NCBI GenBank assembly: GCA_043228905.1
Contig: JBHGNT010000010.1
Location: 14,322,001 to 14,386,000 of the forward strand
Source: Azolla caroliniana
Taxonomy: Eukaryota; Plantae; Polypodiophyta
DNA length: 64,000 nucleotides
Reading direction: 5' to 3'
The notes below the pieces were generated by a model. The model did no database searches, had not been told where the DNA came from, and worked only from the letters and a program-made list of their open reading frames with translations. Made by a program: the position numbers and the translations under genes. Shown here in pieces: positions 16,597 through 58,083 of this stretch (position 1 is the first letter of the stretch; every line of letters begins with the position of its first letter).

Positions 16597-16851
16597 CAAA
16601 CAACGGTAAACTTCTGTTATAAAAAAGCTTAATGTTCAGTACAAACAATAGTGCTCAAATGCACTTTATATATACAAGCCCATCCAATAGGGATATCATG
16701 AAGTACTGACATGTACTTCAGTGCTCTTAAAAGAACCTCTGACATTAATTGTCTATATTAGGCCTATTTACCCAAATAGGTCTAATTGGCATGTGTGACA
16801 TTCCGGATCAAGGCTTCCAAAACCACTCCGTCATCCGGATACGGCATCCGG
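16489..16851 (-). mobile_element. Continuation of the copia 5' LTR begun at 3613
   Basis: Same family motifs (gcggaag, GA tract, cactttatatatacaag, gtactgacatgtacttca) as LTRs at 17670, 21367 and 62808. Confidence 0.6.
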
Positions 16852-16991
16852 TGTCGCGGTATTCCTCGTGCATGTGTCAGATCGAGCGGAACCACCGGGG
16901 TCACGGACCAGGAAGAGATGGATGCCAGGAGACCGACTCTCTTCGGAACCGGCTGTGACACAAACCGGGGCGGTTCCGGAGGCTACTGAAC

Positions 16992-17027
<36 letters not shown>

Positions 17028-17613
17028 ATACGCGCAACACCGACTCAACACACGCTACTTATGTACAAAAATAGAAAGAAAGAAATGCACCCGACACCAA
17101 TAGAGACATAGATATTCACAACCTTTCATATGTGTATTTACAAGACAGTGAGATACAACACCGACTTCGAGCCGGACTTAGGTAGATCAGGTTACATCAG
17201 TTGTCTGTAGCCAAGCCGTTGTTCGGGGGAGCTCAGGGGACAGAGCAGAAACGAAACCGCTAGTACATGCGAGCTCTCTACCAGACTAATCCCTTAACAG
17301 ACAAAGACTCAACCCACACGAAGACGAAGAAGAAGACCTAAACGAAACCCTAAAAGGAAGAAAGTAAGAAGAAGAGACAACTACCAAACCCTAGATCTAA
17401 GTGGGATACCCTCCGAACTCAAAATGGGCAACCCCTCATAAGAGCACTTTCCTCTCTTTTTATTGTCCAAGGAGGGAAGGACGTTACAATGTGGGATAAA
17501 TATCCCCTTGTTATTTTATACACATTTTCGAATGTACATGTGCACATGGTGCACATTGCCGACTTTGCCCATTCCACCTGGTTTTCTCACTGTGGCCGGG
17601 AATCTTCACGACA
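16852..17613 (-). mobile_element. Solo or recombinant LTR of the TGTCG...CGACA gypsy lineage
   Basis: Starts tgtcgcggtattcctcg (compare tgtcgaggtattcctcg at 32924) and ends tcttcacgaca. Homologous to 19731-20631. Flanks ccgg/acgt do not match. Confidence 0.8.
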
Positions 17614-17669
17614 ACGTGGAGAAGAGTGTGAGGGCTAATTGAGAATGTAAAGAGGGCAAGGTTACCTTT

Positions 17670-20600
17670 TGTAAAAGTGAAAGTGCAGAGGCGTAGACAA
17701 AAGCAGATAACAAGAGAATACAATGATGAAGGTTTAATGGAAGCTTAACACAATACGCGGGAGAGACAGAGCAGAACAAAGACTCAATTTCAAAATTACT
17801 CAAAAGACTCTATATCTACAACTGTGCTTTTCAGCACTATTTATAAAAGTCCTTAAAGGACTGACTAAAGTACTGACAAGTACTTCGTGCTCGTATAGAG
17901 CACCAGACACTGACTCCCAAAATATGCCTATGTACTAGGCTAGAGTCGTAGGCCTCTATGGAATGACTAAAGTACTGACAAGTACTTAATGCTCGTATAG
18001 AGCATCAAAGACTGACTCCCATAATATGCCTACGTACTAGGCTAGAGTGGTAGGCCTGTAACGATCCACCAGTTACAATCTGATCCGACTCTCCAATCCG
18101 ACTCTTGGTTCCGGATACGATCCGAACATCGATCCAGTTCTTCGTTTCGGATACCGATTGGGCTCTAGCTTATTCTGCCAATCCGGATCCAGTTGAGCTT
18201 GTCCGCTCAACTTAAGGTAGGATCGTCGTGTATGTCTTCACCGAATACTTCTATCAGCATCATCTAGCGTCCCTGCACCTTGCTCGCAGTCCTCGACCCG
18301 TTCAGTCCCGCACACCTCGATCGGCTCGTCTACTCCGTTGGCCCAAGTCAAGTTCGTGGTTGTTGTGGTGTTGACGCCCCTCGACCCGTCGGTTCCTCCG
18401 TGTCGGTGTCAGCTTTGGCTGCCTCCTTGTCCGCTTGGCCTTCAACTGATTTGGCTCTTCCGAATCAAATTCCTCGACTGAATCGGGTATCTCCGATTCA
18501 TTCGGCTCTTGTCTAAATCAACTGTCTTTGATTCATCCTCCTTCAGGCCTTTGACCACATATGCCCATCCTCTTGCCCGATCCTTACTACCATTGACATA
18601 TCGCATTATCCGATGCGTGCACTACAGATGTTCGACAGTCGGATGCGACATAAATTGACTTATCTTGCCGCTTCTACCAACGTCCGGTTCCGACATTTGG
18701 CCACATCGTTCTGCTCCGGCGTGTATCTATAGGAGAACACTTGACGAATTCCCTTAGTCTGCAAAGAACATGTGAGCTGGCCGAAAAAGTACTCTTTTCC
18801 ACCATCTGATCTCAGACACTTGAGCATTCTTCCAGTTTCTCGTTCAACGTGACTTTTTAGGTTCCATAAGCACGAGACGACTTTGCCTTTCTCTCGATTA
18901 GATAGATCCAAGTGTGCCGGTTGAAATTGTCGATGAAAGAGACGAAATATCGACTCTTGTCGATGCTCACGTTTTGTGCCGGTCCCCACACATTCGAATG
19001 GATAAGATCCAGCCGGTTCCGGTTCTAACTAGGCTCAGAGGGACATCCCCAATATCCTCGATGGGATGTGGGGTGTCGTCTCCGGTTTCGACCGCCCCCG
19101 GCTTCTCGAGAAAGGAGAACCACTCTTTGTGGTTTGTCATGTGGTTTGAAGCTCCAGAGTCCATGTACCAAACTTCTTCCGACTTCGAGTCAGATGTAGC
19201 CATGTGAATAGCATCATGCTTCATTATGAGGACCGATCCCGACCCGGCTCTCTCCAAGCCTCCGACGAAGTGCGATCCGTGGCGCCTATCTGCGTCCCTC
19301 TGGCTCGATCCGGCTATGTCCGAATCGGCCCTTTTCTTCCAGCACTCACTTTCTCTATGGCCCTTCCAGCCACAGTACCAGTAGTCTGTCGTGGCCTTTC
19401 CTAGCCGGCTTCCGATGCCGCATTGACCCCCCCTGCTTTCGGAGGGTCCAGTACTGCTATCGGCACCATCTTTGTGCCTCCGATTCTACTCTTTTCGGCC
19501 GCCTGCATAGTGCGTTGATCCGGCTCGATCGCCACGTCCACGGGGCCTCTCCGCCTTCGTGTACAACATCTTGACTCCTGACTGAGTTGCAGTTTCCGGG
19601 ACGTGGTGCTTGCGGCAAAGTCCTTCTTTAGGTTTCCCCAAGCTTCCTTTGGTGTCTTGGCATCCTAGATATGGCTAAGCAGTTGATTGTTGACACTAGA
19701 CGCAAAGCAGTAAATCATCCTGCTTGTCGATGTCGCGAAAATCCGCGTGCACGTGTTAGATCGGGTGGGACAACCGGGATCACGGACCAGGAAGAGATGG
19801 ATACTGGGAGACCAACTCTCTCCGGAACCGACCGCATCGGTCGTGGCACTAACTGGAGCGATTCCGGATGCGTACCGGAGGCTACTGAATAGAAGAGCAG
19901 GAGAGAGAGAGCACACGCGCAACACTGACTCAACACACGCTTCCTATGTATAGAATCCGGAAAGAAAGAAACGCATCCGACACCAACAGAGACACAAATA
20001 TGCACAACTTCTTATGAATGTATATACAAGACCACGAAATTACAACGCCAGTTTCGAGCCGGTCTAGTACCAAACAAATACAGCAATGGCTTGCCTACAC
20101 GAGTGGAAGCCTAGCACTGAAGACGGGCCTTCTTACCAAAGCGCAATAGTTGTCTACCGCCAAGCCGCCAATCGGGGAGCACTCGGGCTCGCCTACGCAT
20201 GTGGGGACTTGCACAGGAGACAGAGCTACAAATGGAAACCCTCAGAGCATACGAGCTCTAAATCGAACAAAACCCTAACCAAGAAGAGAGATAAGAACTG
20301 GGAGAAACCCTAAAATTCCACCCCAAGAAGAACACCCAAAAGAAAGAAGAAGAAGAAAGCTACCAAACTCTAAAGGAAAGTAAAAGAAAGATACAAGACT
20401 ACCATACCTTAGATCTAAGTGGTATACCCTCCTAACTTAAAATGGGCAACCCCTTTACAAGGGACCCTCCCTTCCTTTTATAGCCCAAGGAAGGAGGGGC
20501 ATTACAATGTGAGATAAATACTCCCCCTTTTATTCTACACACATCTCCTAATGTACATGTGCACATGTTGCACCTTGCTGATCTCGTTGACTTGTCCGGT

Positions 20601-21012
20601 TTTCTCACTGTGGTCGGGAATCTTCACGACACCGCGTGTTCCCAAGCCGGAAAGTCCCTGTGTTCCGCATTAGGTGATGTGTCGTTAGCTCTGTCGACAT
20701 AACTCCAATAGCCATGCCCAAGCATGTACTAGTGCATCTTGTATGACCAAGATGCATAGTTGGTTCTGTCAAGCTTCTCCGTCAAGAGCGAGCTCGCCAT
20801 TCCTCTGTCCATTCTTGCCTTCTTGATCTTTACCTGGTGTTAGGGTTCGTCTATGGAAATCGCTTGTCGGCATCAAAGGTTCTCAACCCTAACGCTCTGA
20901 TACCATGTAAAAGTGAAAGTGCGGAAGCATACACAAAACTGGCTGAACTAGATAACAATAGAACACAGAGATGAAGGTTTAATGGAAGCTTAACACAGTA
21001 CGCGGGAGAGAA
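17670..21012 (-). mobile_element. Internally deleted Ty1/copia (RT, RNase H and PPT lost)
   Basis: 3' LTR 17670 to about 18211. Integrase fragment (LRSDGGKEY) 18660-18989. Protease WYMDSGASNHMT. Gag split by solo LTR 19731-20631. PBS gctctgatacca 20894-20905. Truncated 5' LTR from 20906. Confidence 0.82.
19731..20631 (-). mobile_element. Solo LTR of the TGTCG...CGACA gypsy lineage inserted in copia gag
   Basis: tgtcgcg...cttcacgaca ends. Removing it plus 4 bp restores host gag FPAWEHAASRMIYCFAS. Flanks tcga/ccgc. Confidence 0.85.
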
Positions 21013-26848: not shown

Positions 26849-27013
26849 TACGAGGTCGACCAAATCCTTGACTCGCGTTGGCACCGTCGACACTTGCAAT
26901 ACCTCGTCCTATGCAGGGGTTACCCCATGTCTGAGGCCACATGGGAACCATCGGGAAATTTACAAAATGCCCCAGAGGTCGTCCAAGATTTTCATCACCG
27001 ATATCCCCACAAA
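26849..27013 (+). pseudogene. Chromodomain from a chromovirus (Ty3/gypsy) integrase C-terminus
   Basis: YEVDQILDSRWHRRHLQYLVLCRGYPMSEATWEPSGNLQNAPEVVQDFH matches the chromovirus chromodomain pattern (YEVE.IL...YLVKW.GY...TWEP..NL). The W of the aromatic cage is replaced by C. Confidence 0.85.
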
Positions 27014-27638
27014 CTGAGGATTATTCTAACCCACTTTCATTTTTAACATTTAGTAATGTCAAGAAGGGTTTTTATCGATGCCACATTAACTCATGATATA
27101 TGATAGATCTACTTGTACCCGGGCGTCTCAGGTAGAAAGCAAGGATCCGAGGCAACTTGATTACAATGGAATTCATTTAGTAAATGAAATAGTTAATGTA
27201 CCATTCTAGCCCTTTGTTACAAATAAAGAAACATGGTGCAATGCTCATCGACATTTGACCATTATTCTGCAATCTATGCGTATTTTTTGAAATTGTATCC
27301 AGTTATCCAAACTATAATTGTTGGTGTACGAATTTGTCGTACCAATGTTGACGAATAACCACAACCAAAGATACTGCTTCTTGTTGTCCCGAACAACATA
27401 AGGTTTTGTCCAATTTCATTTGAAACCTCTACCATTAATCGAATAATGGGATTAAGTTTAGAAATTGATGTTAGGAGAGAAAAATGAAAGTAATGTTCGT
27501 CATGAATCCTTCAAACATAATATTGACTATTTTGTTAATTGTACATTATCGTAACATCTACTTTAGGTCTTGAGTTTTTGAGTTGTCAAACAGTTAACAC
27601 ATGATATGCGTCCGAAATTTAATATATGATATTGTCGT

Positions 27639-27711
27639 TTCCATTGCCGGGAGTTGAACCCGGGTCTCTCGGGTGAGAGCCGAGTATCCTAACCAACTAG
27701 ACTACAATGGA
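27639..27711 (-). tRNA. trnE-CUC: tRNA-Glu(CTC), copy 1
   Basis: TCCATTGTAGTCTAGTTGGTTAGGATACTCGGCTCTCACCCGAGAGACCCGGGTTCAACTCCCGGCAATGGAA: full cloverleaf with CTC anticodon. Confidence 0.95.
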
Positions 27712-28254
27712 TCACATTTTGTGTGCTTTTTATCGTAACAATCATTGATTCGTAATAAATAATATTTATATATTGCTTAAACAAGGATCCGAACCAACAA
27801 GACTACAATGGAATTCATTTAGTAAATGATTTAGTTAATGTAATATTCTAGTGGTTTACTTCAAATATAGAAACATGGTGCAATGCTCATCGACAGTTGA
27901 CCAATAGTCTGCGATCTATACGTATTGCTTGAAATTGTATTGTGATATCCAAACTATAATTGTTGGTGTACTAATTTGTCGTACCAATGTTGACGATTAA
28001 CCAAAACCAAATATACTGCTTCTTGTTGTCCCGAACAACATAATGTTGTCCCTAACCAACTAGATTACAATGGCTCCTATCTTGTGTATAGATATATTGC
28101 AATCATAGATTAGTAATAAATAGTATTTACATATTGCGCAAGCATCAACAAGAAACTGAGGATTGCTCTCACACACTCTCGTTTTTAACATTTAATCATT
28201 TCAAGGGGTTTTATCGATGTGACATTACATAATGATCTATGATGTATCTAGTTT

Positions 28255-28327
28255 TTCCAATGGCTATTGTTGTACCCCGGAGTCTCGTGTAAAAAACAAG
28301 GATCCGAACCAACTAGACTACAATAGA
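28255..28327 (-). pseudogene. Decayed full-length tRNA-Glu relic (also at 29873-29945 and 31491-31563)
   Basis: Aligns ungapped to the intact tRNA at 54 of 73 positions by eye. Anticodon and T arms destroyed. Confidence 0.8.
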
Positions 28328-29256
28328 ATTGATTCAGTACATGAATTAGTTAATATAATATTCTAGTGCTTTGCTTCAAATAAAGAACTATGACGCAATG
28401 TTGATCGAGAGTTCACCATTATTCTACAATCTATGCGTATTTCGGGAAACTCTATGAAGTTATCCAAACTGTAATTGTCGGTGTACTAATTTGTCGTAAC
28501 CATGTTGACAAATAACCACGACTAAATATATTGTTTCTTCTTGTCCCGAACAACCTAATGTTTTGTCAAAAGACATTTGAAACCTCTCCTATTAATTGAA
28601 TAATGGGATTAAGTTTGCAAGCATCAACAAAAAACTGAGGATTATTCTAACCCACTTTCATTTTTAACATTTAGTAATGTCAAGGGTTTTTATCGATGCC
28701 ACATTAACTCATGATATATGATAGATCTACTTGTACCCGGGCGTCTCAGGTAGAAAGCAAGGATCCGAGGCAACTTGATTACAATGGAATTCATTTAGTA
28801 AATGAAATAGTTAATGTACCATTCTAGCCCTTTGTTACAAATAAAGAAACATGGTGCAATGCTCATCGACATTTGACCATTATTCTGCAATCTATGCGTA
28901 TTTTTTGAAATTGTATCCAGTTATCCAAACTATAATTGTTGGTGTACGAATTTGTCGTACCAATGTTGACGAATAACCACAACCAAAGATACTGCTTCTT
29001 GTTGTCCCGAACAACATAAGGTTTTGTCCAATTTCATTTGAAACCTCTACCATTAATCGAATAATGGGATTAAGTTTAGAAATTGATGTTAGGAGAGAAA
29101 AATGAAAGTAATGTTCGTCATGAATCCTTCAAACATAATATTGACTATTTTGTTAATTGTACATTATCGTAACATCTACTTTAGGTCTTGAGTTTTTGAG
29201 TTGTCAAACAGTTAACACATGATATGCGTCCGAAATTTAATATATGATATTGTCGT

Positions 29257-29329
29257 TTCCATTGCCGGGAGTTGAACCCGGGTCTCTCGGGTGAGAGCCG
29301 AGTATCCTAACCAACTAGACTACAATGGA
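29257..29329 (-). tRNA. trnE-CUC: tRNA-Glu(CTC), copy 2
   Basis: Identical to copy 1. Confidence 0.95.
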
Positions 29330-30874: not shown

Positions 30875-30947
30875 TTCCATTGCCGGGAGTTGAACCCGGG
30901 TCTCTCGGGTGAGAGCCGAGTATCCTAACCAACTAGACTACAATGGA
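30875..30947 (-). tRNA. trnE-CUC: tRNA-Glu(CTC), copy 3
   Basis: Identical to copy 1. Confidence 0.95.
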
Positions 30948-32492: not shown

Positions 32493-32565
32493 TTCCATTG
32501 CCGGGAGTTGAACCCAGGTCTCTCGGGTGAGAGCCGAGTATCCTGACCAACTAGACTACAATGGA
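32493..32565 (-). tRNA. trnE-CUC: tRNA-Glu(CTC), copy 4
   Basis: Two substitutions versus copy 1 (D-loop GGTCAGG, and a T-stem U-G wobble). Cloverleaf retained. Confidence 0.9.
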
Positions 32566-32889
32566 TCACATTTTGTGTGCTTTTTATCGTAACAATGTTG
32601 AGGAATAACGACAACGAAATAGACTATCTGTTGTTGTCCCGAAAAACATAATATTTATTCCAATTTCATTCGCAACCCCTACCATTAATCGAATAATGGG
32701 ATTAAGTTTTGAAATGGATGTGAGGAGTAAGAAATCAAAGTAAATTTCGTTATCAATCCTTCAAACAGAATATTTATTATTTTGTTAATTTTACATTATT
32801 ATAACAGCTACTTTACGTCGTTAGTTTTTGAGTTATTAAGTAGTTAACAAATCACATGCGTCGCAAAATTTGATATATGATATTGTCCT

Positions 32890-43300: not shown

Positions 43301-45656
43301 AAGAAGATGAAAATGATACCGGAACCGGCCCCGACCCCGAAATGGATTCGGATGAAGAAGAATCGGAAGAACCGGTTACCGAAGCTCCGGAACGGAGATA
43401 TCCTCTAAGAGAGAGAAGGGCCCCCCGGAGATTTCCGGAACCAGAGCACGTGCTGCTAACCGACGAGGGGGAGCCGGAGAGCTTTGAAGAAGCAAAGCAT
43501 GACACCCAGAGCCGCAGGTGGTTGAGTGCCATGCAGGACGAGATGGATTCCCTGCATGAGAACCACACATATGAACTTGTGGAGTTGCCGAAAGGAAAGC
43601 GGGCACTTCGAAACAAGTGGGTGTTCAAGCTGAAACCGGGAGATGCCGGAAACCCCCCGAGATACAAAGCCAGGATCGTGGTGAAGGGGTTTCAGCAGAA
43701 GAAGGGCGTCGACTTCGACGAGATATTTGCCCCGGTAGTGAAGATGACCTCCATCCGGACGGTGCTGAGCATAGCGGCAAGCATGGACCTCGAGGTAGAA
43801 CAGATGGACGTGAAGACGGCATTCCTTCACGGCGACCTCGAAGAAGAGATCTACATGTAGCAACTGGAAGGATTCGAGAAGAAAGGGAAGGAGCACCTGG
43901 TATGCCGGTTGAAGAAGAGCCTTTACGGACTGAAGCAGGCACCCCGGCAATGGGACCGGAAGTTCGACTCTTTCATGACCGACGAAGGGTACCTCAAAAC
44001 GCAGTCCGACCACTGCGTGTTTGTGAAGAAGTTCGAAGGAGGAGACTTTCTAATACTCCTCCTGTACGTGGACGACATGTTGATCGTCGGACGGGACCAG
44101 GTCAAGATACGGATGCTGAAGAAGGCTCTTCACCGAACCTTCTCAATGAAGGACTTGGGTCCGGCGAGACAAATACTAGGGATGCACATCATCCGGGACC
44201 GGAGCAAGAAGCAGTTGTGGCTGTCACAGGAGAAGTACGTGACAAAGGTGCTTAAACGGTTCAACATGTCGGAAGCAAGACTGGTCGGATCGACCCTTCC
44301 GGCAAACTGCAAGCTGTCCAGCAAGCAAAGCCCCAAGACAAAGGCTGAGAAGGAGGACATGATGAAAGTGCCATATGCCTCTGCCGTCGGAAGCTTGATG
44401 TACGCAATGGTGTGTACAAGACCGGACATTGGATACGCAGTCGGAGTGGTTAGCCGGTACATGAGCAATCCCGGCAAAAAGCACTAGAACGCGGCCAAGT
44501 GGATACTCCGATACCTGAAGGGCACGGCAAACATGTGCCTCTGATTCGGCTCCGGTAAGCCCGAACTCGACGGCTTTACCGATTCGGATATGTCGGCTGA
44601 TGCAGATACCAGCCGGTCCACATCAGGGTATGTGATGACGTATGCAGGGGGAGCTGTTTCATGGCAGTCGAGACTGCAGAAGACGGTTGCGTTGTCAACC
44701 ACGGAGGCGGAGTACATGGCGGCTGTTGAAGCCGGCAAGGAAATAATATGGATGAAGGACTTCATTAGAGAGCTTGGTATCCGGCAGGAGGAGTACCGAC
44801 TCTACTGCGACAGTCAGAGTGCAATCCACCTTGCGAAGAACGCGGCCTATCACTCCCGGACGAAGCACATCCAGCGAAGATATCACTGGATCCGGGAAAG
44901 GATAGAAGACAAGGAGTTCGTGCTGACGAAGGTCCACACGGACGAGAACGGGTCGGATATGCTGACCAAGGTGCTCACACCCGACAAGCTGGAAGCATGC
45001 CGGAAGAGGATCGGATTGGAGAGACATCCCATGCCGAAGTGAAGGGGGAGTTTGTTGGGATTACGGTCCCTTCGGATGGGATGGTCGGATGTCGGAGATG
45101 AATGACGACAAGCCCGGTTGCGGTTTCGGAACCGGATGATGAAGATCCCGGTTACGGAGCCGGATGACGAATGTACCCGGAGAGAGATCCGGATGCGGGG
45201 ACATATTTGTGAATATGTTTGCCAAGGGCCCTTGAGGCTATAGTTGTAAATAGCCCGAAAGTCATATGTGTATAAATATAACTTAGGGCAAACAATTTTA
45301 CTGTTGCTACTCATTTTTCTGTTTTTCCACTCAAGAGGAGTGAAGAGAGAGCAGCCGTGAGAGAGATAGAGCGTGAGAGAGGAAGAGGTCGACGCCTCTG
45401 TGTATTTCCGCCGCCTGTGGCGAGGACAGCGAGCTCAAGGTCGTCGCCTTGCAGCTCGCCATTGTATATTTCTCTGTGCATAGTTTTGGTTCGGAGTCTT
45501 GTACTCCCGTGGTTTTTCCCGAACAGGGTTTTCCACGTTAAATCGTGTGTCCACTTATTTACTACTGCATTTCCCATTTTCTGCAACAACGATTCGTGTG
45601 TTTCCTTGGTTGTGGCCGAGAGGTGAAGTTTGGAAAGTGTCGATTAATTTCCATCA
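40354..45656 (+). mobile_element. Full-length Ty1/copia element D nested in the integrase of element A
   Basis: 604-bp LTRs 40354-40957 and 45053-45656. TSD CACCC. PBS 40961-40972. gag-pol very similar to C, with several stops. Confidence 0.96.
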
Positions 45657-47890
45657 CACCCTTCCTCTTCTTCGGGTGCTTCCATAAGTATCCGTCCCGG
45701 AGAAAGAATCGGTATGCTTTCTTCCGGATCCGGTTGGCCTCGTCCCTCGTCCATGACGTATCCGGCGTCATTGTCCTCAAAAACCCACCGATCTATAGCC
45801 ACTCGCCGTCGTACTTGCTCTCGTCAAAGTCGTTAAGTGTCGGAGTGCTCGTCCCATCGGTCGTCACGTACGCTGCTCCGAAGAAGACCACGCCGACTTC
45901 TTCGTCCTCCAAAACCATGCCGCCCTCGTCATGAAACCTCGCCCTCGAAAGCATGTCGGCCATGGCGTTGTCTTTTCCGGAAATGTGTCGTATTTCCGGG
46001 TCCAGGGACTTGATGTACGCTATCCACCTGAGCATCGCCAGGTCCGGTGTCGCGCATCCGGAAACCATGCCGAGAATTGGCAGGCAATCCGTCTCGATAA
46101 TCACTTCTGTCCCGATCAGGTAGTCTTTGTCGGACTTTACTGCCGAAACAATACCCCAGAGTTCGCGTTTAACCTGGGCGTACCCTCGCTGTCGCTCACT
46201 GAGGACCTTTGCGCCGAATCGGATCGGGAACCGGGTGCCGTCCTCGTCTTCTTGGTTGACGACCCATCCGATCCCGGTCGGGCTCGTATCCACCGTTATG
46301 TATACCGGGGTACTCTTCTCGTAGACAGCCTTCCGGAGCGCTGGTGCTACCGCAAGAGCTTCCTTTAGCTTCCGGACCGACTCCGTGTGCTCGTCTCGCC
46401 ACTCGAATTTTTCAGCAACTCGTATAGCGGCTCCGCAACGTGGGCGTAATGCGGGATCCATATGTGGTAGAAAGCGCATGCCCCCAGGAACCTCCGAACT
46501 TCCGTAACCGAGCTACAGTCGGTCTTCATCGCGGAGATGGCTTCTACCTTTGCCGGAGACGGCTTCCGGCCATATGGTCCACATAGGTGTCCGACCACCA
46601 GGATTTCTGATTGCCCGAAGGCCGATTTCTCCCCGGAGAAGGTGAGCCTCGCGTCCTCTAGCCTTTGTAGCACCTTCTCGCAGTCATGGATGTCTGTTGC
46701 CACGAATCGCCGGCATCCGTCCGGCCCGAGTGTCTCGTCCTTCTCTTCCACCGGGCACCCTTTGATCGGGATGTCGTCTAGAAATGGCATGGTGATGTCC
46801 GGGATGCAATCCCTCAGTACCTTGTTCATTGCATTCACCATGTGGGCCACCGAGTTGGTCCCTCCTTGTGGCAGGGTACACATTCGCACTAGGCCGAGGG
46901 GAGTTCGCATCGTCGTAATGTCTCTGCTCTCCACGGCTAGCTGGAACTGGTCGTACCCCGAGTACAGATCACCGACCGAGTAAATCGACCTTCCGGCGAA
47001 GGCCTCCGCGAACTCGTCTATGGTCGGTCCGATTCATGCGTTCCGAATGGTCACTTTGTTGACCGGCTGCAGGTCTTGAATGAAGCGCAATGTTCTGTTT
47101 TTCTTTGGTACGGTAAACCATCGGTTCGAGTATGGGGCACTTGACGGTTCGAGAATGCCCATATCGACTTTCTGCCTCAATAGCTCCATCAATTTCGGAT
47201 GTGAGCTCTCGGTACCGGAATTGGCTTGAGATTCCACGGCACATGCGGTACCGTGAATATCACCATCGGCTCCACGATTGTCGGGTCTACGCACCCGATC
47301 TCTTCCGGCGAGAATGCGAAGGCTTTCCCGTGCCTTCCGAGCATTCTCCGAAACCGGTCTTCCTCCGCCGGCAGTAGGAACCCGCCCCCACCGATTTTGA
47401 GCTCCCGGAGCGTCCCGTCGGTGAAGGTGTGTTCTATGAAGACCGGATCTCGCAAACTGGGGTCCGACGCAACCCCTCTGATTCGGGACTCGCTGCCCTC
47501 CGGCAAGGGTGCCGCGACGGGCCTTACCTTCTGGTCCACAGTCTTGTACTTCGTGCTAACTCGGGCCGTCCGGTCCGACCTGAGCCCTTGACTGAAGCTC
47601 GCGATGACTTCGTACATCTCTTCGGAACATACTGGTATCGTCCGGTCTTCGTTAAGGTCTTCTCCGGCTACCTTCCTCAGCATCCCCAAGGTGTCGTCGA
47701 AGGAGACCGCCTCCACGGCTCCGCTAATTTCCTCGTCCGGGCCGAGAACTCCGCACGCTCGAAGTCGCTCCTCCGCCCTTGCCTTTTCTCGGCCAACGAT
47801 GCCGACTATCATACACCCTCTGTTGTTGGAGAAGCAAAATTTTCTTCCCACTGTACAGGGTTTCTTCGGTTTCGGTTCTATCGTACAGCT

Positions 47891-47956
47891 GTGGGGTCTT
47901 TCCCGAGTGTCCGGACTGTCTCGGCCCCACGCCTTGGCAGCCCTCTCTAAAAATCC
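47891..47956 (-). promoter_or_regulatory. Predicted -1 programmed ribosomal frameshift signal (G GAU UUU plus pseudoknot), element A
   Basis: Heptamer 47950-47956 lies directly before the gag-pro TAG. The -1 frame is open into pol. Stem GGGCTG/CAGTCC with loop GTGGGG able to pair with downstream CCCCAC. Confidence 0.75.
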
Positions 47957-50900
47957 TCCTGGTTCTCGCCACCGAGGGATTTGCGGTTTTGCTCGTGGTT
48001 CGGCCGCACCGTCAGAAATTGGACCGAATGGTGCCCATCCTGGCTTTTGACCCTCGCGTAGGCCGAACTGTTGTCCAGCACTTTGGTCTCCATTCTCGCC
48101 GCCATTATGTATGGTTCCCCTAAAATGACCGGATGCGAGGACGTCTCCTGTACGAAGAAGTATTGGTCAATCTCGATGTCGCCGATCTTGACTCGCACAT
48201 TCGGGCAGGCCCCGTGCAGTTCCTCGGTGGCGCGCGTCGCCGCCCGTATCTTCCACCCGTGCTTGGTGTTGATCGGCCATTTTCCCTTCTTATAGAAGTC
48301 CATGGACATCAGGTTTATTTCCGAACCGTGGTCCACCAGTGCTACCACCGGTTCCTGAACATCTCTGATCTTTACCGGGGTCTCCGTGGTCGCTCGGGCC
48401 CAGTGTGGCCTCGAATAGTGGCTCTCCGCCCACCCATCTTCCAGTGCTAAGTCGTCGATGTGCGTCGTCCGCACCTCCACCGGTCTTTCCGGTTCCGTCT
48501 CCGTCGACAGCCTCTTCCATTTCACCAAGTCTACAATGGAGTCATGGAACTCCTTCTTGGCGATCCCTAGCACCTCCCGCGATGACAACTCCACTTTGCT
48601 GTCGAGGATCCGTTCTTCTAGGACCTTTCATAGGTCCGTGGTCCTTTCTATTTCCGTCCCCAGTCGGTATCCGCCCTTCCTGGGGTTATCTTGCGAGCTG
48701 GACCCACCGGCATTGTTCCGTCGTTGCCCTAATCGGGTCTCGTATCGTTGTGAGGGCCCGGCCGCTCCGGCTTTCCCCACTCGTTTGTCTTCTACCAGAG
48801 CCTCGTAGTTCCAGCAGGCGGCTTCTACGAAGCCCGTCTTCTCCTCGACCGGATCGCTCCACCCGGTTATTTCCCGGACCCGTCTCTCAGCGCGGTCCAT
48901 TTCATCTTTCCTCAGCCGTGCACCGGCGAGGCCTTCCAGCATTGCTGACCAGAATCCGTCTTTGCTCTCCTTTCGGGCCTCGCTGCCCCCGACCCGAATA
49001 CCGGCCGACGCCGAGTCCGGGCCTTCCCACATGTACACCACCTGGTTCCTCAACGCCTCTACGAAATCGCCGCAGTCCTTCCGAATGTGGCCGACCTCGT
49101 CGCACCACATGCACTTGTTCCCTGCTGCCGGCCGTCGGTCACGAGCCGGTTCGCCGCCTTCCCTTCGAGTCTGGGTGATCTGGAGATCCTTTATCGCCGG
49201 TGTCAACTCCTCCAGCGCTGCTCCTCCGGACGAGCCACTGACCATGTCGGTCGAAGCCGGACCGGTTTTTGAGCCATTCCCGGGTTTCTTCCCTTCGCCC
49301 TTGCGGTGCCGGTTCAAGCCTCCTTGCTGTGACAGAGCCCGCACCAGCCGCCCCGTTGTCAGCCCATTCTCGCCGTTTGTTGAAACGGCCACAGACTCTC
49401 TTAACCGCAGCCCAGTCGGTCGTCAGCCCGTCTTCGGTTTCCAGCAAGGAGCCGACTTGATCCCGGTCCCGCTCGTCCACCGACTTGACGAACAGTAGGA
49501 CCCGGCTCATATCCAGAACGGTTCGGTCAAGCGCCGAAATGCGCGCAAAGCGTTCTTCGAACTCCCGGAGGAGTGCCGACGCGTTTCTTCCCTTGCCGGG
49601 GGACTCCACCCATTCCATGAAGTCTCGTTTCGAAAGCCGGAGCGCGTCGTCCAGCCCGTATTTTTCTAGGAGTCGGCCTTCGAACTCCTCCCAGGTACGG
49701 CTCTCTGCCCGCACCTCGAGCACCTCCGCATGGATGCTCGGCATCGCCACTCGAGGAAACCCGACAAGACGCCTCTCTTCCGGAATGTCCCACTGTCGTG
49801 CCTTTCGGCTCCGGATCGTTGCGTGAGTCGGGTGGGAACCACAGAGGTCTTGGACTAGGAGAAAGAAGTTCGTGAGATAGAGATTAATTATGAGTAAATA
49901 GCAAAGAGAAAGATAAGAAACTCGTGAATCACACGAGTATACTATATTAATTGGTACTTAGGGTGTTAAGAGAGACGTAGATGTATAAATCGTGAATCCC
50001 ACGAATAAATTTCGTATTGATTAATACTTAATCCAAATAATCAACAACCCTTTACATATTTCTCTCCTCCTTATATAAGGAAGGAAGAGCTAAGCATGGC
50101 TTCATGTTTTTTTTTTACAAAAAGTGTTCATGTCCACTAAATGTGCATGTGATGCTTTTTTTATTTCCTAAGTATAGGGCTCATGCACGCTAGATGTGCA
50201 TGAGTTATTTTTTAGTGTCTCGTCTTTTTCATATATTAAAAAATACACGATTTACCTTTTAATAAAGGTATGCATAAATAAAGGTCTTATACATATTAAA
50301 TCTATATTTAAAGCACTTAAGATAAGTTAATGTAATGGTAAGGTTGGGGTTTGTCAACGTGGAGGTGCAGAGTTCAAATCACGCCCTGCGCAGTAGTGAG
50401 TATTTCCTTTCTTTTTACTTTTATGTCTCTTTATCCGGCTCTTCCTTGCCGGTATGCCGTTTTCTTCCTTGCCGGTATGCCGTTTTTCCTCCTTGCCGGT
50501 ATGCCGTTTTCTTCCTTGCCGGTATGCCGTTTTCTTCCGGTTCTCACCGAGCACTCCATTCTCTATCCGGAGGGACAAAAATATAATTTCCACATAGTGT
50601 GCAACCTACACTACGACACTCGCCCCCTCCAAACCCGCACATCCTCCGGTATGTGCCGAAGTTCTTGATTCTTCGTATCCGTCTTCATCCGAAGCTTCCT
50701 CCGATTCTCCCCTTATGTCGACTATGAGTTGTAATCCACTTTCTTTGCTTCCCGCATCATTGTGGTCTTCGTCCGATTGCTCCTCGTTGTCGGCCTCGAC
50801 TTGGATCACATAAGGTTTGTCGTCGGTCCGCTTCTTGAAAATCTTCACCCGCTTCCCGGCTATAGGCACTCGTAGTATTGTTCCATCCAACTCGGACAGT

Positions 50901-51438
50901 CGGTACGTCCCGTTGTCGAAGACCTTCCGAACCTCGTACGGCCCGAACCACCTTTTCGCGAATTTCCGCATCGTTGTATGTTGATGGTCCAAGCTACTAT
51001 CATAGACGATCACCCAATCTCCTTCTTCAATCCTCCTCGGTCGTAGTCGGTGCTTTGTGTCGAACCGGCTTTTGTTCCGGAACCGTGCTTCTTGTTGTCG
51101 GCGTGACGCTTCCGCTACATCTTTCGGTCTTCCCTCCAGTTGTCGTATCCGGACTGCTAGTAGTTCTTCCCGGCTCATCTCTTCCTTCCACGGTAGTATT
51201 GTCCATGTCGCGATTGCGGTTTCCGTTGGCATTACCGGTGCTTGTCCGGTCATGAGTTCTGCCGGCATGTAACCGGTCACGGAGCTATGCGTCGTCCGAT
51301 CCGCCCATAGTGCATACGGAAGCATTTGTGGCCAATCCTTCACCCTTCCGTCGCATGCCTTCGCAAGTGCTTTCACGATCGGACTATGTCCTCGTTCGAT
51401 CTTCCCGTTGGCCTCCGGATTGTAGGCCGTTGTCAACG

Positions 51439-54069
51439 TTAACCGAACTCCATGTTTGGCGAAGAATCCCCTTTGTCCGAGTCGAGTTCTCCCCGGTCCG
51501 CAATCACTTGTCCTACGCAGCCGTACCTACAAAACACTTCTTCCAAAAGAAATTGGCACACCGCGGCACACGTTTTCCTCCGAAGCGCTCGACCTTCAAC
51601 TTGGTTTGTGAGATCTTCTCGAGCTAACACCAAGTATTTCTTTTGTCCAATCCCGGTCGGCATAGCTACAATGTCGACCATCCACTTAAAGTTGATTGTC
51701 GGTGAGAATGTCGGATGCAGCTCATCTCGGTGTCGGACCCCGGAGTAGACTTGACATTTCTCGCAGCTTTCTGTGAACTCCGCGACATCTTTATACATGT
51801 TCTTCCACCAATATCTTTGCTTGATTTTCACAAAAGTTGCCCATGTTCCTCGATGTCCAGCCCAATCGGATTCGTGGAACTCGGACATTATCCGGTTTCG
51901 TTGCTCTTTCGTCCCGACTACTCGAAGTGGTATCCCATCCGGTCTTTTCGGCGTCCTCCATATTAAACCGTTTTCCAAGAAGAACTTTTGGACTTGCCTC
52001 TTCTTCCTTCGGATCTCGGCTCTCCTTTCTTTATTATTGGTTGAATCCTCGACCTCTTGTAGCATCTTCCCGATCATCAAGGTTTCCCCTTCGTATTCTT
52101 CTTCCCGGAATTCTCGGATCACGTTCACTCGGCATATGTGTTCTGACGTGAAGTAGTCTTCGGAAACTTCTTCATTATCTGATTCGGTTATGTCGTCTTC
52201 AAACCGCGCCCTCGATAACATGTCCGCTACCGCGTTGTCCTTCCCCGAGATGTGTCGAACCTCCGGATTAAGTGACTTGACATATGCAATCCACCTTAGC
52301 ATAGCCACATCCGGTATCGTACAACACCGCATCATCCCGAGTATCGGAAGACAATCCGTCTCGATCACCACTTCAGCTCCGATCAAATAATCCCGATCCG
52401 ATTTTATCGCCGACATGACTCCCCACAATTCTCTTTTGACTTGTGCATATCCGCGTTGCCTTTCATTGAGGACCTTTGCTCCAAATCGGATCGGATACCG
52501 CGAACCATCCGAGTCGGCTTGATTGATGACCCACCCGATACCGGTTGGACTTGTATCAACCGTTACTATGATTGGCCGCTCATAGCTTGGCTTCTTAAGT
52601 GATTCTGCCCTCCATAGTGTCTTCTTGAGCTTCCTCATGGCTTTAGTGTGTTCCGATTTCCACTCGAATTTCTTACCTTTCCGCAACAAGTGATAGAGCG
52701 GGTCCGCTATATGTGCATAGTGCGGAATCCATATGTGATAGAATGCACACGCACCCAGAAACCTTCGGACTTCCGATGTTGACTCACATACTTCCTTCAT
52801 AGCTTGAATCGCATCGATCTTTGTTGGTGACGGTCTTCGGCCGTAGGGTCCACATAGATGTCCGACCACCAATATTTCTTCTTGCCCGAATGCCGATTTC
52901 TCCCCGGAAAGTGTTAGGTGCACATCTTCTAGCTTTCGCAACACTTTCTCGCAATCATGAATATGGTCGACCACGAACTTTCGGCATCCCTGATCATCCA
53001 TAGTCTCATCTTTTTCTTCCACCGCGCATCCTTTCATCGGAATGTCATCTAGAAACGGCATCGTTATCTCCGGAATGCAATCTCGAAGCACCTTGTTCAT
53101 CGCGTTCATCATATGTGCAACCGAGTTTGTCGCTCCTTGTGGTAGTGTGCACATTCGAACTAGTCCTATCGGTGTCCGCATGGTAGTGATGTCTCGGCTC
53201 TCCACGGCTAGTTGGAATTGATCATACCCCGAGTATAGGTCCCCGATGGAGTATATCGCACGTCTGGCAAAAGCTTCCGCGAATTCGTCCACTATCGGAC
53301 CGACTCCCGAGTTCCGGATCGTGACCTTGTTCACCGGTTGCAAGTCTTGGATGAATCGGAGTGACCCATTCTTCTTCGGAACCGTAAACCATCGATTTGA
53401 GTACGGAGCACTTGATGGCTCTAGAATCCCCATCGCCACCTTCTCCTTGAGCAAGTCGATGACTTTCGGAATATGCGCCCGTGGCACCGGAATCGGCTTC
53501 AGGTTCCACGGTACATGATCAATCGTGAAGATCACCATCGGCTCCACTATCTTTGGATCAATGCATCCGATCTCCCTCGATGTGAACGCGAATGCTTTGC
53601 CGTGTTGCTCCAACATCTCTCGAAACCGTTTTTCTTCTTCTTGTAAGAGGAACCCACCTCCACCGATCCGAAGTTTCTTCCGGGTCTCATCTGTGAAGGC
53701 ATGTCCGATATGCACGGTCTTCCGAAGTGTCGGATCTCCCGAGACTTCTTTCCTCTTTTGTTCGCTATCGGCGGGTAGTGGTCCCGCGGCCGGTTTCACC
53801 TTCTTCTCCACGGTCTTGTATTTCGTACTTACCATTGCTTCTTCTTTGCGGAGCGCATCCGGCCCCATTTTCGCAACGATCTCGTACATCTCGACCGATT
53901 CCACCGGGACTACCCGGTTCCCTTGGCTTTTATCTTCCGCAAGCTCTTCAAGCCGTTGTAGTGTATTCCCATAGAACACTTCCTCGATCACTCCCACGAT
54001 TTCTTCGTCTTCTTTTATTATTGATGCCGACCGTAACTTATCCTCCACTTGTCGGTATTGTTTTTTCAT
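51439..54069 (-). CDS. Gypsy pol (RT, RNase H, integrase N-terminal part) of element B; integrase continues frameshifted in 50606-51436
   Basis: DLYSGYDQ, LPQGATNS, PFLDD, VDTSPTGIG, IETDCLP, NAVADMLSR, H..GH...CxxC zinc finger, ADRGE, NPEANGKIER, GPY motif. Confidence 0.92.
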   Translation of the reverse strand: MKKQYRQVEDKLRSASIIKEDEEIVGVIEEVFYGNTLQRLEELAEDKSQGNRVVPVESVEMYEIVAKMGPDALRKEEAMVSTKYKTVEKKVKPAAGPLPADSEQKRKEVSGDPTLRKTVHIGHAFTDETRKKLRIGGGGFLLQEEEKRFREMLEQHGKAFAFTSREIGCIDPKIVEPMVIFTIDHVPWNLKPIPVPRAHIPKVIDLLKEKVAMGILEPSSAPYSNRWFTVPKKNGSLRFIQDLQPVNKVTIRNSGVGPIVDEFAEAFARRAIYSIGDLYSGYDQFQLAVESRDITTMRTPIGLVRMCTLPQGATNSVAHMMNAMNKVLRDCIPEITMPFLDDIPMKGCAVEEKDETMDDQGCRKFVVDHIHDCEKVLRKLEDVHLTLSGEKSAFGQEEILVVGHLCGPYGRRPSPTKIDAIQAMKEVCESTSEVRRFLGACAFYHIWIPHYAHIADPLYHLLRKGKKFEWKSEHTKAMRKLKKTLWRAESLKKPSYERPIIVTVDTSPTGIGWVINQADSDGSRYPIRFGAKVLNERQRGYAQVKRELWGVMSAIKSDRDYLIGAEVVIETDCLPILGMMRCCTIPDVAMLRWIAYVKSLNPEVRHISGKDNAVADMLSRARFEDDITESDNEEVSEDYFTSEHICRVNVIREFREEEYEGETLMIGKMLQEVEDSTNNKERRAEIRRKKRQVQKFFLENGLIWRTPKRPDGIPLRVVGTKEQRNRIMSEFHESDWAGHRGTWATFVKIKQRYWWKNMYKDVAEFTESCEKCQVYSGVRHRDELHPTFSPTINFKWMVDIVAMPTGIGQKKYLVLAREDLTNQVEGRALRRKTCAAVCQFLLEEVFCRYGCVGQVIADRGELDSDKGDSSPNMEFG

Positions 54070-54149
54070 TCCTTCGGTTACGGCCGTGTACGTAGATGCC
54101 CCATCCGGGCCGATTCGTACTTGTTTTGCTCCGAGAGTTTTCTTCCTGT

Positions 54150-54213
54150 GTGGGGTATCAGGGTTTCTCGGACTATCACTTCCCCACTCCGCAATAGTCC
54201 GCTTTAAAAATCC
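54150..54213 (-). promoter_or_regulatory. Predicted -1 programmed ribosomal frameshift signal, element B
   Basis: G GAT TTT TAA (54204-54213). The -1 frame is open into the 51439-54069 ORF. Stem CGGACTAT/ATAGTCCG with loop GTGGGG able to pair with CCCCAC. Confidence 0.75.
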
Positions 54214-55329
54214 ATTCTCACTTGGGACAAGAGTTCCTTTCGTGATTTGCCGGCACCGTTAGGAATTGGACGGATTTCCCTCCGTTTTGGCTCCGAATTC
54301 GCGCAAAAGCCGCACCACTATCGAGCACCTTCGTCTCCATCCGTCTTTCCGGAAGTTCGGTCGGAGTGGCTTCCGAGAGTCCATCGAATGAATCCGGTTT
54401 CCCTCGTAGTAGATGAGATCCCGTCGTAGCGCCTCCTTATGGTCGTCGCAATCCCTCCGATCGTGTTCGGCGCTACGCACCATATGCACCGTCGATCCGT
54501 ATATTTGGAGCTTGTGGGGCGGTCATCCGACTTCTTCACCATCGCGATCTTTAGATTCTCCATCTCCTTCAGCAGCTGCTCCACCGTAGACGCGTCGACT
54601 CCCTTCTCGGCCGTAATCTCCCGAGCCCTCGGTTGATGGTCTTCCAATCCCGTTCTCGGTTTCGGAATCGGTTCCGAAACCCTCTTTTCTTCGTTGGCAA
54701 GCCATTGCCCCCTCTTCGTGTACCGCGCGACGATATCCCGCACGCTTTCCCATGTTTCGGTGAGGCCGCTTTCGGTGGTCGTGTCCTCAAGAAGCACTCC
54801 GAGATCTTTCCGGTCCCGGACGTCCACAGCTCGCAAAAACATGATGACTTTGTCCGGTGCAAGAATAGTTTGATCTCTCGCGGACAACCTCCCGAACCGA
54901 CTTTCGAATGTCGAAAACACTTCGAGGACCTTCAACCCCTTACCTGACGTTTCCACCCAATCCTCGAATCCCCTCCGCGTTGCCTTGGAGGAGTCCTCGA
55001 TGGCAAACGTGGTCTTTAACGCCTCTTCGAATGCTTCCCACGTCGGATTTTGTTGTTGCAACCCGTGGATACTCCCTTGAAGCGCGTCGGTCGCCACCCG
55101 GTTAAAGGATGTCACTTGCAGTCCTTCCGAAGCCCGGCACCGGAGCATCTCCGCCTTGTAGTCCTGCAAATATCGCGACACATCCTTACCATTAAATTGC
55201 CCGTTGCGTTGCACGAGCCGCTCTACTGATGCCGAAATCTCCGACATCGTGCGTTGTTCTTGAAGCATCCGTTCGAACATCGCCATCATATTGTTAGCTT
55301 GTTGAGCCTCCATCTCCTTGCCACCCGTT

Positions 55330-55347
55330 TTCACGTCGGGTTCACCA
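55330..55347 (-). promoter_or_regulatory. Primer-binding site complementary to the tRNA-Trp 3' end (element B; same at 56356-56373 in A)
   Basis: Plus strand ttcacgtcgggttcacca equals the 3'-terminal 18 nt of plant cytosolic tRNA-Trp plus CCA as I recall it. Lies 3-4 bp from the LTR. Confidence 0.85.
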
Positions 55348-57028
55348 ACTGTGTCGTGCCTTTCGGCTCCGGATCGTTGCGTGAGTCGGGTGGGAACCAC
55401 AGAGGTCTTGGACTAGGAGAAAGAAGTTCGTGAGATAGAGATTAATTATGAGTAAATAGCAAAGAGAAAGATAAGAAACTCGTGAATCACACGAGTATAC
55501 TATATTAATTGGTACTTAGGGTGTTAAGAGAGACGTAGATGTATAAATCGTGAATCCCACGAATAAATTTCGTATTGATTAATACTTAATCCAAATAATC
55601 AACAACCCTTTACATATTTCTCTCCTCCTTATATAAGGAAGGAAGAGCTAAGCATGGCTTCATGTTTTTTTTTTACAAAAAGTGTTCATGTCCACTAAAT
55701 GTGCATGTGATGCTTTTTTTATTTCCTAAGTATAGGGCTCATGCACGCTAGATGTGCATGAGTTATTTTTTAGTGTCTCGTCTTTTTCATATATTAAAAA
55801 ATACACGATTTACCTTGTAATAAAGGTATGCATAAATAAAGGTCTTATACATATTAAATCTATATTTAAAGCACTTAAGATAAGTTAATGTAATGGTAAG
55901 GTTGGGGTTTGTCAACGTGGAGGTGCAGAGTTCAAATCACGCCCTGCGCAGTAGTGAGTATTTCCTTTCTTTTTACTTTTATGTCTCTTTATCCGGCTCT
56001 TCCTTGCCGGTATGCCGTTTTCTTCCTTGCCGGTATGCCGTTTTTCCTCCTTGCCGGTATGCCGTTTTCTTCCGGTTCTCACCGAGCACTCCATTCTCTA
56101 TCCGGAGGGACAAAAATATAATTTCCACATAGTGTGCAACCTACACTACGACACCGCATCAGCATTTCTGCCCCGTAGGACGCCAAATACTTCGTGGCAT
56201 CCTTTCCGCTGAACCGGCCGATCGTACCGACGACCACCTCAATGGCTCTGTCGAGGGCGTCGGTGCCCTCGCGTGCGCTCAATATCCGATCCACGGCCGA
56301 AGCCATGGGCTCCGCAAGATCCGACCCCTTCATCTTCTGCTCTTCTGCCGCCTCCTTCACGTCGGGTTCACCAAGATGTCGAGGTATTCCTCGCGGATGC
56401 GTGGAATGAGGCGGGACCTCGGGGTCTTGTACCGAAGAGCAAGAGAGAAAGGAGAAGGGAAGAGACCCACTAGGTGCGAGCGTAGATCCACAGGGACACG
56501 GCCCTTCGACACGAAGACGCGAGCGGGAAACCAACACAGAGAGACACGAAGGTATGTATGTATATATTAACAGAGACAAACAACAAGAAGCACGAAGTTG
56601 GTTACAACCGAATAGGCCGGCGAACAGATGCTGATGCCTGTTCGTAAACGCACAGAAAGGAAAGAGTAGGTTGGAGGTGCTGCCGGAAGCACTCGGGCAT
56701 TCCTCAGAGCAGCGCGAGCCGCCCGAAACCTGCACAGCAAGAAGCTACGGAGTTTGCGAGCGAGAGAGAGAGAGAAGCCTCCGACCCACAAACCGACAGC
56801 ACTTCGTCCTCGACTCTCCGCGATCCCCTTCCTCCTCCTCGTCTCCCTCCTTTTATAGGCAAGAAGGGAGCCGTTTCCTATTAACTTCCTACCTACCGAA
56901 TCTACCTACCTAGGATCTTCCATGTCCCTAATTCTCTCTTATGTATATCACAAGGCGTACGTGCATGAAGAGCCGGTTCCTATGCTCCGGCGCACCGATT
57001 CTGCTCGTGGACGGTTTTCTTCACGACA

Positions 57029-58083
57029 TCGTGTGAGAGCCAAGTATTCTAACGAAATAGACGAAAATGGCTCACATCTTGTGCACTATTTTTTTTTGCA
57101 ATCATTGATTAGAAAAATATAATATTTATCTTTTGTGCAAGCAACAACGAAAAACTGAAGATTATTCTAACACACTCTCGTTTTTAAGATTTAATAATTT
57201 CAAGGGTTTTTATCTATGCCACATTAACTCATGATATATCATATATCTACTTGATTACAATGGAATTCATTTAGTAAATGAATTAGTTTGTTACAAATAA
57301 AAAAACATGGTGCAATGCTCATAGACTGTTAACCATTATTCTGAAATTTATGCGTATTGTTTAAAATTGTATCGAGTTATCCAAACTATAATTGTTGGTG
57401 TACCAATTTGTCGTACCAATGTTGACGAAAAACCACAACTAAATATACTGCTTCTTCTTGGCCCAAACAACGTAATGTTTTGTGAAATTTCATTTCAAAA
57501 CTTGTACTATTAATTGAATAATGGGATTAAATTTAGAAATTGATGTTAGGAGAAAAAAATCAAAGAAAAGTTCTTTATCAATCCTCCATACATAATATTG
57601 ATTATTTTATTAATTGTACATTATTGTAACAACTACTTTAGGTCTTGAGTTTTTGAGTTATCGAATAGTTAAGAAATGACATGCGTCACAAAATTTGATA
57701 TATGATATTGTCTTTTCCATTGGTGGGAGTTGAACCCAGGTCTCTCGGGTGAGAGCCGAGTATCCTAACCAACTAGACTACAATGGATCACATCTTGTGT
57801 GCTTTTTAATATTGCAATCATTGGTTATTAATAAATAATATTTATATATTGCGTAAGCATTAACGAAAAACTGAGGATTATTGTAACACATTGTCATTTT
57901 TAAGATTTAATAATTTCAAGGGTTTTTATCTGACCCACATGAACTTATGATCTATGATGTATCTAGTGTTGTCATTGCCTGTAGTTGTACCCGGGCGTGT
58001 CGGGTAAAAAAGCAATGATCCGAACCAACTAGACTACAATGGAATTCATTTAGTAAATAAATTAGTTAATGTAATATTCTAGT
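57029..58083. repeat. Diverged continuation of the tRNA-Glu array
   Basis: Same blocks (aaaactgagg, catggtgcaatgctc, ttatccaaactataattgttggtgtac) with many substitutions. Contains tRNA relics at 57029-57071 and about 57969-58043. Confidence 0.9.
57715..57787 (-). tRNA. trnE-CUC: tRNA-Glu(CTC), diverged copy with a T-stem C:C mismatch; function uncertain
   Basis: Acceptor, D and anticodon arms intact. T arm CTGGG-TTCAACT-CCCAC. T4 terminator 21 nt downstream. Confidence 0.75.

What the first reader, a model, noticed from the sequence alone, without database searches (positions are those of the whole stretch)
16848..57032. Gypsy lineage inserts with a 4-bp TSD centred on CpG (NCGN)
Seen: junction tetramers of all four insertions with TGTCG...CGACA ends are tcgt/tcgt (A), ccac/ccgc (B, left copy explicable by CpG deamination), tcga/ccgc (solo LTR 19731) and ccgg/acgt (LTR 16852). 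Seven of eight have a central CG. The three well-preserved copia elements here (6663, 34312, 40354) show ordinary 5-bp TSDs without this bias. Known: plant LTR elements mostly make 5-bp TSDs with weak sequence preference. Inference: a CpG-directed, possibly methylation-sensing, integrase that would steer insertions into other transposons and tRNA genes. The sample is only four events.
Basis: partly seen in the sequence, partly recalled or inferred. Interest (0 to 1): 0.72.

Follow-up and report, generated by a model that had tools for sequence, protein, structure and literature searches.

The report
Phygy-type retrotransposons insert at CpG
These plant jumping genes almost always insert at a CG pair and duplicate four bases, a habit already published for the moss Phygy lineage to which they likely belong, while the idea that they sense DNA methylation remains untested.

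Summary
Real, genome-wide, and already published. Two Ty3/gypsy families (A, B; 63% identical Pol) make 4-bp target site duplications (TSDs) centred on CG: 39 of 47 paired insertions chosen blind to their flanks have an exact 4-bp TSD (all NCGN), all 47 match with at most one mismatch, none has a 5-bp TSD, and 130 of 137 outer junctions have central CG (background 3.7%). A copia control gives 5-bp TSDs (36 of 39) with no CG bias. Neumann et al. 2019 list exactly this for Phygy: 4-bp NCGN TSD, tRNA-Trp primer site, no extra domain; all three are met here, and the closest named Gag/protease relatives include Physcomitrium proteins. No labelled Phygy reference could be placed in a tree. New here: the motif narrows to VCGB (ACGT commonest), matching the signature of 4-bp-stagger retroviral integrases, and the lineage is active outside Physcomitrium. 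tRNA targeting is not supported (0 of 57 sites). Steering into repeats is weak (79% versus 67% expected from CpG availability, 70% for copia). Methylation sensing could not be tested; no reader domain was found.

The parts
32924..57028 (-). Family A Ty3/gypsy element (about 6.9 kb without its three nested inserts); 3' LTR 32924-33576, 5' LTR 56377-57028, 98% identical, ends TGTCG...CGACA
   Evidence: self-BLAST; net length; RT and RNase H
32920..32923 (.). Left TSD copy of A, TCGT (right copy 57029-57032); exact 4-bp TSD, a rare T-first type (20 of 516 family-A NCG ends)
56356..56373 (-). Primer binding site of A, 18 nt complementary to the 3' end of host tRNA-Trp(CCA) plus CCA
33577..33590 (-). 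Polypurine tract of A
   Evidence: sequence; 470 genome hits
49794..56153 (-). Family B Ty3/gypsy element nested in A (6360 bp; seven to eight full copies elsewhere 7250-7456 bp); 3' LTR 49794-50618, 5' LTR 55352-56153
49790..49793 (.). Left TSD copy of B, CCAC, decayed from CCGC (right copy 56154-56157)
   Evidence: empty site in other A copies
55330..55347 (-). Primer binding site of B, tRNA-Trp
51439..54258 (-). B pol frame: RT, RNase H, integrase zinc finger and start of the core (P0001); integrase continues in another frame 50606-51526 with an SH3-like C-terminal domain and an acidic tail
54318..55412 (-). B gag frame (P0004)
   Evidence: related gag found in family-C elements
19731..20631 (-). 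Family C solo LTR in a copia element; decayed 4-bp TSD TCGA/CCGC
16852..17613 (-). Family C LTR whose flanks (CCGG, ACGT) come from two places 1.16 kb apart in one host repeat; likely recombinant of two insertions or a deletion
6663..12026 (+). Control: copia element, 5-bp TSD GTCAG
34312..39812 (+). Control: copia element nested in A, 5-bp TSD CTTCC
40354..45656 (+). Control: copia element nested in A, 5-bp TSD CACCC
27000..32923 (-). Target region of A: tandem array (1618-bp unit) with tRNA-Glu(CTC) genes, continuing at 57029-58100; A split a decayed copy beside the anticodon

Best explanation
These are non-chromovirus Ty3/gypsy retrotransposons, likely of the Phygy lineage, that insert with a 4-bp duplication centred on CG, likely because their integrase reads the target DNA directly. 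Shown: 4-bp TSD, near-invariant central CG, avoidance of T first and A last (VCGB), a weak palindromic extension (A/C before, G/T after), tRNA-Trp primer site, no chromodomain or extra RNase H. Inferred: the integrase dimer cuts with a 4-base stagger, kinks the DNA at the central pyrimidine-purine step as foamy-virus and MLV integrases do, and adds base contacts that narrow YR to CG. Because CpGs in this genome are concentrated in repeats, insertions pile up in other transposons without any methylation reader; selection against genic insertions likely adds the rest. The non-CG junctions are later 5mC deamination.
For: TSD and motif. Same signature (T disfavoured first, A last, central YR) in retroviruses with 4-bp TSDs: PMC4422553 section 6; closest solved structures are PFV and Ty3 integrases. 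Phygy profile: PMC6317226. PBS 18/18 match in 54 of 64 copies, at least 16/18 in all 64. Pfam finds RT, RNase H, integrase, DUF4100, protease, no Chromo, aRH, MBD or SRA at E<0.05 in 15 proteins; conservation in 33 aligned integrases ends at the SH3-like domain, followed by a variable acidic tail. CpG density of insertion flanks equals that around random VCGB sites (0.0589 vs 0.0590). Repeat-matching flanks: A+B 121 of 153, copia 50 of 71, difference 0.09 with interval -0.06 to 0.24. Precedent for CGCG targeting by ZAM-group elements in Drosophila (PMC5408687), whose genome lacks CpG methylation (recalled). Five of 9 TSD mismatches are transitions at the central CG.
Against: Flexibility alone would admit CA, TG and TA, so base-specific contacts are needed and none is identified. 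Flanks match repeats more often than CpG availability predicts (79% vs 67%, difference 0.13, interval 0.01 to 0.27; in the repeat-poor distal part of C1 73% vs 30%, copia 47% of 15), which leaves room for chromatin or methylation steering. No labelled Phygy sequence could be compared; elements (6.9-7.5 kb) are slightly shorter than the P. patens range of 7656-9968 bp.
Confidence: 0.72

Rival explanations
1. The integrase prefers methylated CpG (through its core, or through the altered bendability of 5mCpG), and so targets silenced repeats without a chromodomain.
For: Strict CG rather than any YR step; excess of repeat flanks over VCGB background, largest in repeat-poor distal C1; TSDs and LTRs show CpG decay, so these regions are methylated after insertion (A LTRs 6 of 102 CpG positions vs 7 of 550 others). 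A 1992 paper title on CpG methylation and retroviral integration was seen in a reference list only (not held).
Against: No methyl-reader domain; repeat excess not separable from the CpG-blind copia control; 32 of 153 flanks matched no repeat in my limited library; decay shows methylation after, not before, insertion; Drosophila CGCG precedent.
Confidence: 0.13
2. Two layers: direct VCGB readout for the exact site plus a host tethering factor, bound by the SH3-like domain or acidic tail, that brings the complex to heterochromatin.
For: Repeat excess in distal C1; Phygy domains reported enriched in centromeric regions of a liverwort (PMC12885004 passage); Phygy-in-Tcn1 nesting in P. patens (PMC6911290 passage).
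Against: No excess in two of four strata; the acidic tail is not conserved; retention bias explains the same pattern, since copia also exceeds random background (70% vs 42%).
Confidence: 0.13
3. Artefact of boundary calling: the LTR ends are longer than TG...CA and the CG tetramers belong to the element.
For: The LTR termini themselves hold CG (TGTCG/CGACA).
Against: Internal sides of the same LTR ends read PBS or PPT, not NCGN; the tetramer varies between insertions but is the same at both ends of each; empty sites carry one copy.
Confidence: 0.01

Closest known systems
Phygy (non-chromovirus Ty3/gypsy, Physcomitrium patens; Neumann et al. 2019, PMC6317226)
   Same: 4-bp TSD with NCGN (100% of 186 elements there), tRNA-Trp PBS (81% there), no chromodomain, no aRH, no extra ORF, coding region filling the interior; protease 61-65% identical (medians) to 22 P. 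patens proteins.
   Different: Different host and different families; 6.9-7.5 kb against 7656-9968 bp; the paper gives NCGN, here it resolves to VCGB with ACGT commonest. Described there as species-specific; homologous Gag/Pol proteins are in Riccia and Adiantum.
TatI (Selaginella; same paper)
   Same: 4-bp TSD (4 of 4 elements) and tRNA-Trp PBS (75%).
   Different: TatI carries an archaeal-type RNase H between protease and RT; none found here; no NCGN preference reported.
Selgy (Selaginella; same paper)
   Same: Short non-chromovirus, 4-bp TSD (96%).
   Different: tRNA-Ala PBS, about 5 kb, no NCGN preference reported.
Drosophila errantiviruses of the ZAM subgroup (ZAM, Tirant; PMC5408687)
   Same: Gypsy integrase with a palindromic CG-containing target (CGCG).
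   Different: Animal lineage with env and AGT ends; not tested for relationship here.
Retroviral integrases with 4-bp TSD (PFV, MoMLV, PERV, XMRV; PMC4422553)
   Same: Central YR step favoured, T disfavoured at the first and A at the last TSD position; PFV integrase is the best PDB match (E 8e-19).
   Different: Their preference is weak (YR about 63% above random); here central CG is about 95%. The residue aligned near PFV Ala188 is Glu in an invariant DRGEL motif (20 of 20 matches).

Membership tests
Phygy | 4-bp TSD | tested here: met
   39 of 47 exact, 47 of 47 within one mismatch, 0 of 47 exact 5 or 6 bp
Phygy | NCGN target preference | tested here: met
   130 of 137 junctions; at least 516 of 592 genome-wide for A; 287 of 530 B ends, inner ends included, followed by VCGB
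Phygy | tRNA-Trp primer binding site | tested here: met
   host tRNA-Trp genes found; 18-nt match; 64 of 64 copies at least 16/18
Phygy | No chromodomain, no aRH, gypsy domain order | tested here: met
   Pfam; alignment
Phygy | Short element whose polyprotein spans nearly the whole interior, no extra ORF | tested here: met
   B: gag starts next to the PBS and the integrase frame ends at the 3' LTR; 6.9-7.5 kb, slightly below the P. patens range, which is descriptive
Phygy | RT/RH/INT clusters with Phygy references in a tree (the primary criterion) | not testable with these tools
   REXdb and the paper's FASTA and element table were too large to read. Proxy only: protease tree places A+B (100/99) among P. 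patens, Riccia and Adiantum proteins, next to 19 P. patens rows at 88/78, unrooted, unlabelled
TatI | aRH between protease and RT | tested here: not met
   no RNase H hit in that region at E<0.05
Selgy | tRNA-Ala PBS | tested here: not met
   PBS is tRNA-Trp
Chromovirus (Tcn1, Galadriel, Tekay, Reina, CRM) | Chromodomain at the integrase C-terminus | tested here: not met

The most novel reading that the evidence does not exclude
The Phygy integrase reads methylated CpG itself, giving a chromodomain-free route to aim a retrotransposon at silenced repeats, conserved across mosses, liverworts and ferns; this genome's more than 800 CG-centred junctions would make it directly testable against a methylome.
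Probability: 0.13. Interest if true: 0.7.

Novelty: new member of a known kind. Interest (0 to 1): 0.2.

Why it matters
As it stands it confirms a published lineage trait in another seed-free plant and sharpens the motif to VCGB. Phygy-type integrases are unusually sequence-strict for LTR elements, so they are a usable model for how an integrase narrows a flexible-step preference to one dinucleotide. It would matter much more if the preference proved to depend on 5-methylcytosine; five literature searches listed no paper that tests this for Phygy.

Tried and rejected
tRNA-gene targeting: rejected; the family-A and copia flanks flagged matched a copia-like LTR piece beside an array, not tRNA. 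First repeat comparison (A+B 113 of 153 vs copia 6 of 16, Fisher p 0.007) did not hold when the copia and background samples were enlarged and bootstrapped by locus. Treating 16852 as one TSD: rejected. Bisulfite runs: none was listed. ESM Atlas gave only generic gypsy RT clusters. Host placement from a helicase exon was inconclusive: fern and Sphagnum proteins lead among named hits after one angiosperm row, so only 'land plant, probably seed-free'. Tandem Repeats Finder found nothing because the unit exceeds its 500-bp limit. No protease hit in the two family-C stretches fetched, gag only. Kitamura 1992 not held. Scan look-up by words found nothing. No structure was predicted.
Full report
Observation. 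Elements A (32924-57028) and B (49794-56153, nested in A) lie on the minus strand with gypsy domain order. Only A is an exact TSD pair. B's left copy CCAC decayed from CCGC, the commonest reading at that site in other A copies (34 of 39 rows). Solo LTR 19731 has a 4-base flank overlap in a homologous repeat. The flanks of LTR 16852 lie about 1.16 kb apart in an intact relative, so they are two half-sites, both NCGN.

Genome-wide test. The family-A LTR end occurs 1062 times; 470 are followed by the polypurine tract, 516 by NCG, 76 by neither. For B, 287 of 530 ends are followed by VCGB, inner ends included. I fetched the first 100 listed A hits and the first 30 B hits, chosen without regard to flank, all on contigs C1 and C2. 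Three A LTR sides with mutated PBS or PPT were reclassified by eye as internal. Of 36 A pairs or solos, 3 lacked a recognisable left end; of the 33 left, 28 have an exact 4-bp TSD, all NCGN, and 33 are within one mismatch. For B the figures are 11 and 14 of 14. None has an exact 5- or 6-bp TSD. 35 A and 6 B LTRs stayed unpaired. Ten more A elements were picked from the NCG list and are counted apart (9 of 10 exact). Over all blind outer junctions 130 of 137 have central CG and 7 have TG or CA. Background CG is 0.036-0.037 per dinucleotide and 0.055 in the flanks. The copia family gives exact 5-bp TSDs in 13 of 13, 17 of 20 and 6 of 6 pairs, with CG anywhere in the 5-mer in 0 of 16, 6 of 20 and 1 of 9 (the last read's output).

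Motif. Against background NCGN, ACGT is 5.6-fold and ACGG/CCGT 2.7-fold enriched, while T-first or A-last tetramers are nearly absent (48 exact TSDs, both strands). Genome-wide only 20 of 516 A ends read TCG, against 32% of background NCGN. The next base out favours A or C. The same avoidance of T first and A last, with a central YR step, is reported for retroviruses with 4-bp TSDs (PMC4422553, abstract and section 6 read), where base contacts such as PFV Ala188 shape the preference (PMC4005685, abstract). PFV and Ty3 integrases are the best PDB matches.

Identity. Neumann et al. 2019 (PMC6317226; passages, section 9 and supplementary file 5 read; files 1 and 3 too large to read and they bear on membership) state that Phygy elements alone prefer NCGN and tabulate 4-bp TSD 100%, tRNA-Trp PBS 81%, 7656-9968 bp, no extra domain. 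Here the PBS matches the 3' end of host tRNA-Trp (54 of 64 copies 18/18). Pfam shows DUF4100, protease, RT, RNase H, integrase and a weak SH3-like domain, and no chromodomain or aRH, which excludes chromoviruses and TatI. Named Pol relatives are from Riccia (up to 68-71% identity) and Adiantum; named Gag/protease relatives include many P. patens proteins, best E 1.6e-132. A protease tree of 54 rows puts A and B together, among P. patens, Riccia and Adiantum proteins, without a labelled reference or root. A and B Pol are 63% identical, so the preference is shared by distinct families. Jedlicka et al. 2019 (PMC6911290, passages) also report GC-rich centres in 4-bp TSDs and Phygy nested in Tcn1. 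Phygy domains are reported in a liverwort (PMC12885004, passages). PMC7466625 (passages) and PMC9033089 (one passage) added nothing on target sites.

Steering. No tRNA gene was found in 57 in-silico empty sites (positive control 40 of 40; the window's own A site also scored negative, as that copy is decayed) or within 1.5 kb in 60 loci. With a repeat library limited to the DNA I fetched, 121 of 153 A+B flanks (20 of them from the NCG-picked loci) match a repeat elsewhere, against 1663 of 2500 flanks of random VCGB sites, 842 of 2000 random positions and 50 of 71 copia flanks. Bootstrapped by locus, A+B exceed VCGB background by 0.13 (0.01 to 0.27) and copia by 0.09 (-0.06 to 0.24). By stratum the excess over VCGB background is 0.05, -0.04, 0.46 and 0.19. 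CpG density beside insertions equals that beside random VCGB sites. So most of the repeat bias follows from where CpGs are; a residual remains that selection, tethering or methylation could each explain.

Mechanism. Shown: stagger length, motif, primer, domain content. Inferred: direct readout of a kinked central CG by the integrase (0.72); methyl-CpG preference (0.13); readout plus host tethering (0.13). ZAM-group elements target CGCG in Drosophila (PMC5408687, passages), whose lack of CpG methylation is recalled, not from a call. CpG decay in TSDs (5 of 9 mismatches) and in A's LTRs shows methylation after insertion only. No bisulfite run was listed.

Verdict. Real and strong, but a new member of a described lineage showing its described trait. 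Interest 0.2. The methylation question is open; five searches listed no test of it.

Noticed in passing
window 27000-32923 and 57029-58100: tRNA-Glu(CTC) genes sit in a tandem array with a 1618-bp higher-order unit (642+515+461 subunits); four units are near-identical, and only one subunit per unit keeps an ARAGORN-positive gene.
   Followed up: no
L179, L180 (G000:C16:5015833-5024460), L178: tRNA-Trp genes are also in tandem arrays (5 calls per 3 kb), one copy with anticodon CTA called tRNA-Pyl by ARAGORN, probably a mutated Trp copy. Isotype-specific tRNA arrays may be a genome-wide feature.
   Followed up: no
L085 (G000:C2:19815542): A family-A element sits directly against the end of an older family-A LTR, separated only by ACGG: re-insertion into a previous TSD, which keeps its CpG; its other flank equals that of the insertion at C1:20423304.
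   Followed up: partly
background loci L158-L177, L201-L220, L234-L240: Repeat-rich stretches have CpG observed/expected near 1.0 while repeat-poor ones have 0.4-0.6, the reverse of what methylation-driven decay usually leaves; consistent with young transposons.
   Followed up: no
window 49794-56153: The window's B copy is about 0.9-1.0 kb shorter than eight other B copies although its LTRs differ at 1 of 802 aligned positions.
   Followed up: no
window 61502-62002 (-): Last exon-like frame of a DEAD-box helicase (RH37/RH52 type) among transposons, with a changed residue in the last helicase motif; possibly a pseudogene.
   Followed up: partly
L105, L106 and L115, L116: Two pairs of B LTRs share an identical outer flank 5-15 kb apart, pointing to local duplication or tandem elements.
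   Followed up: no
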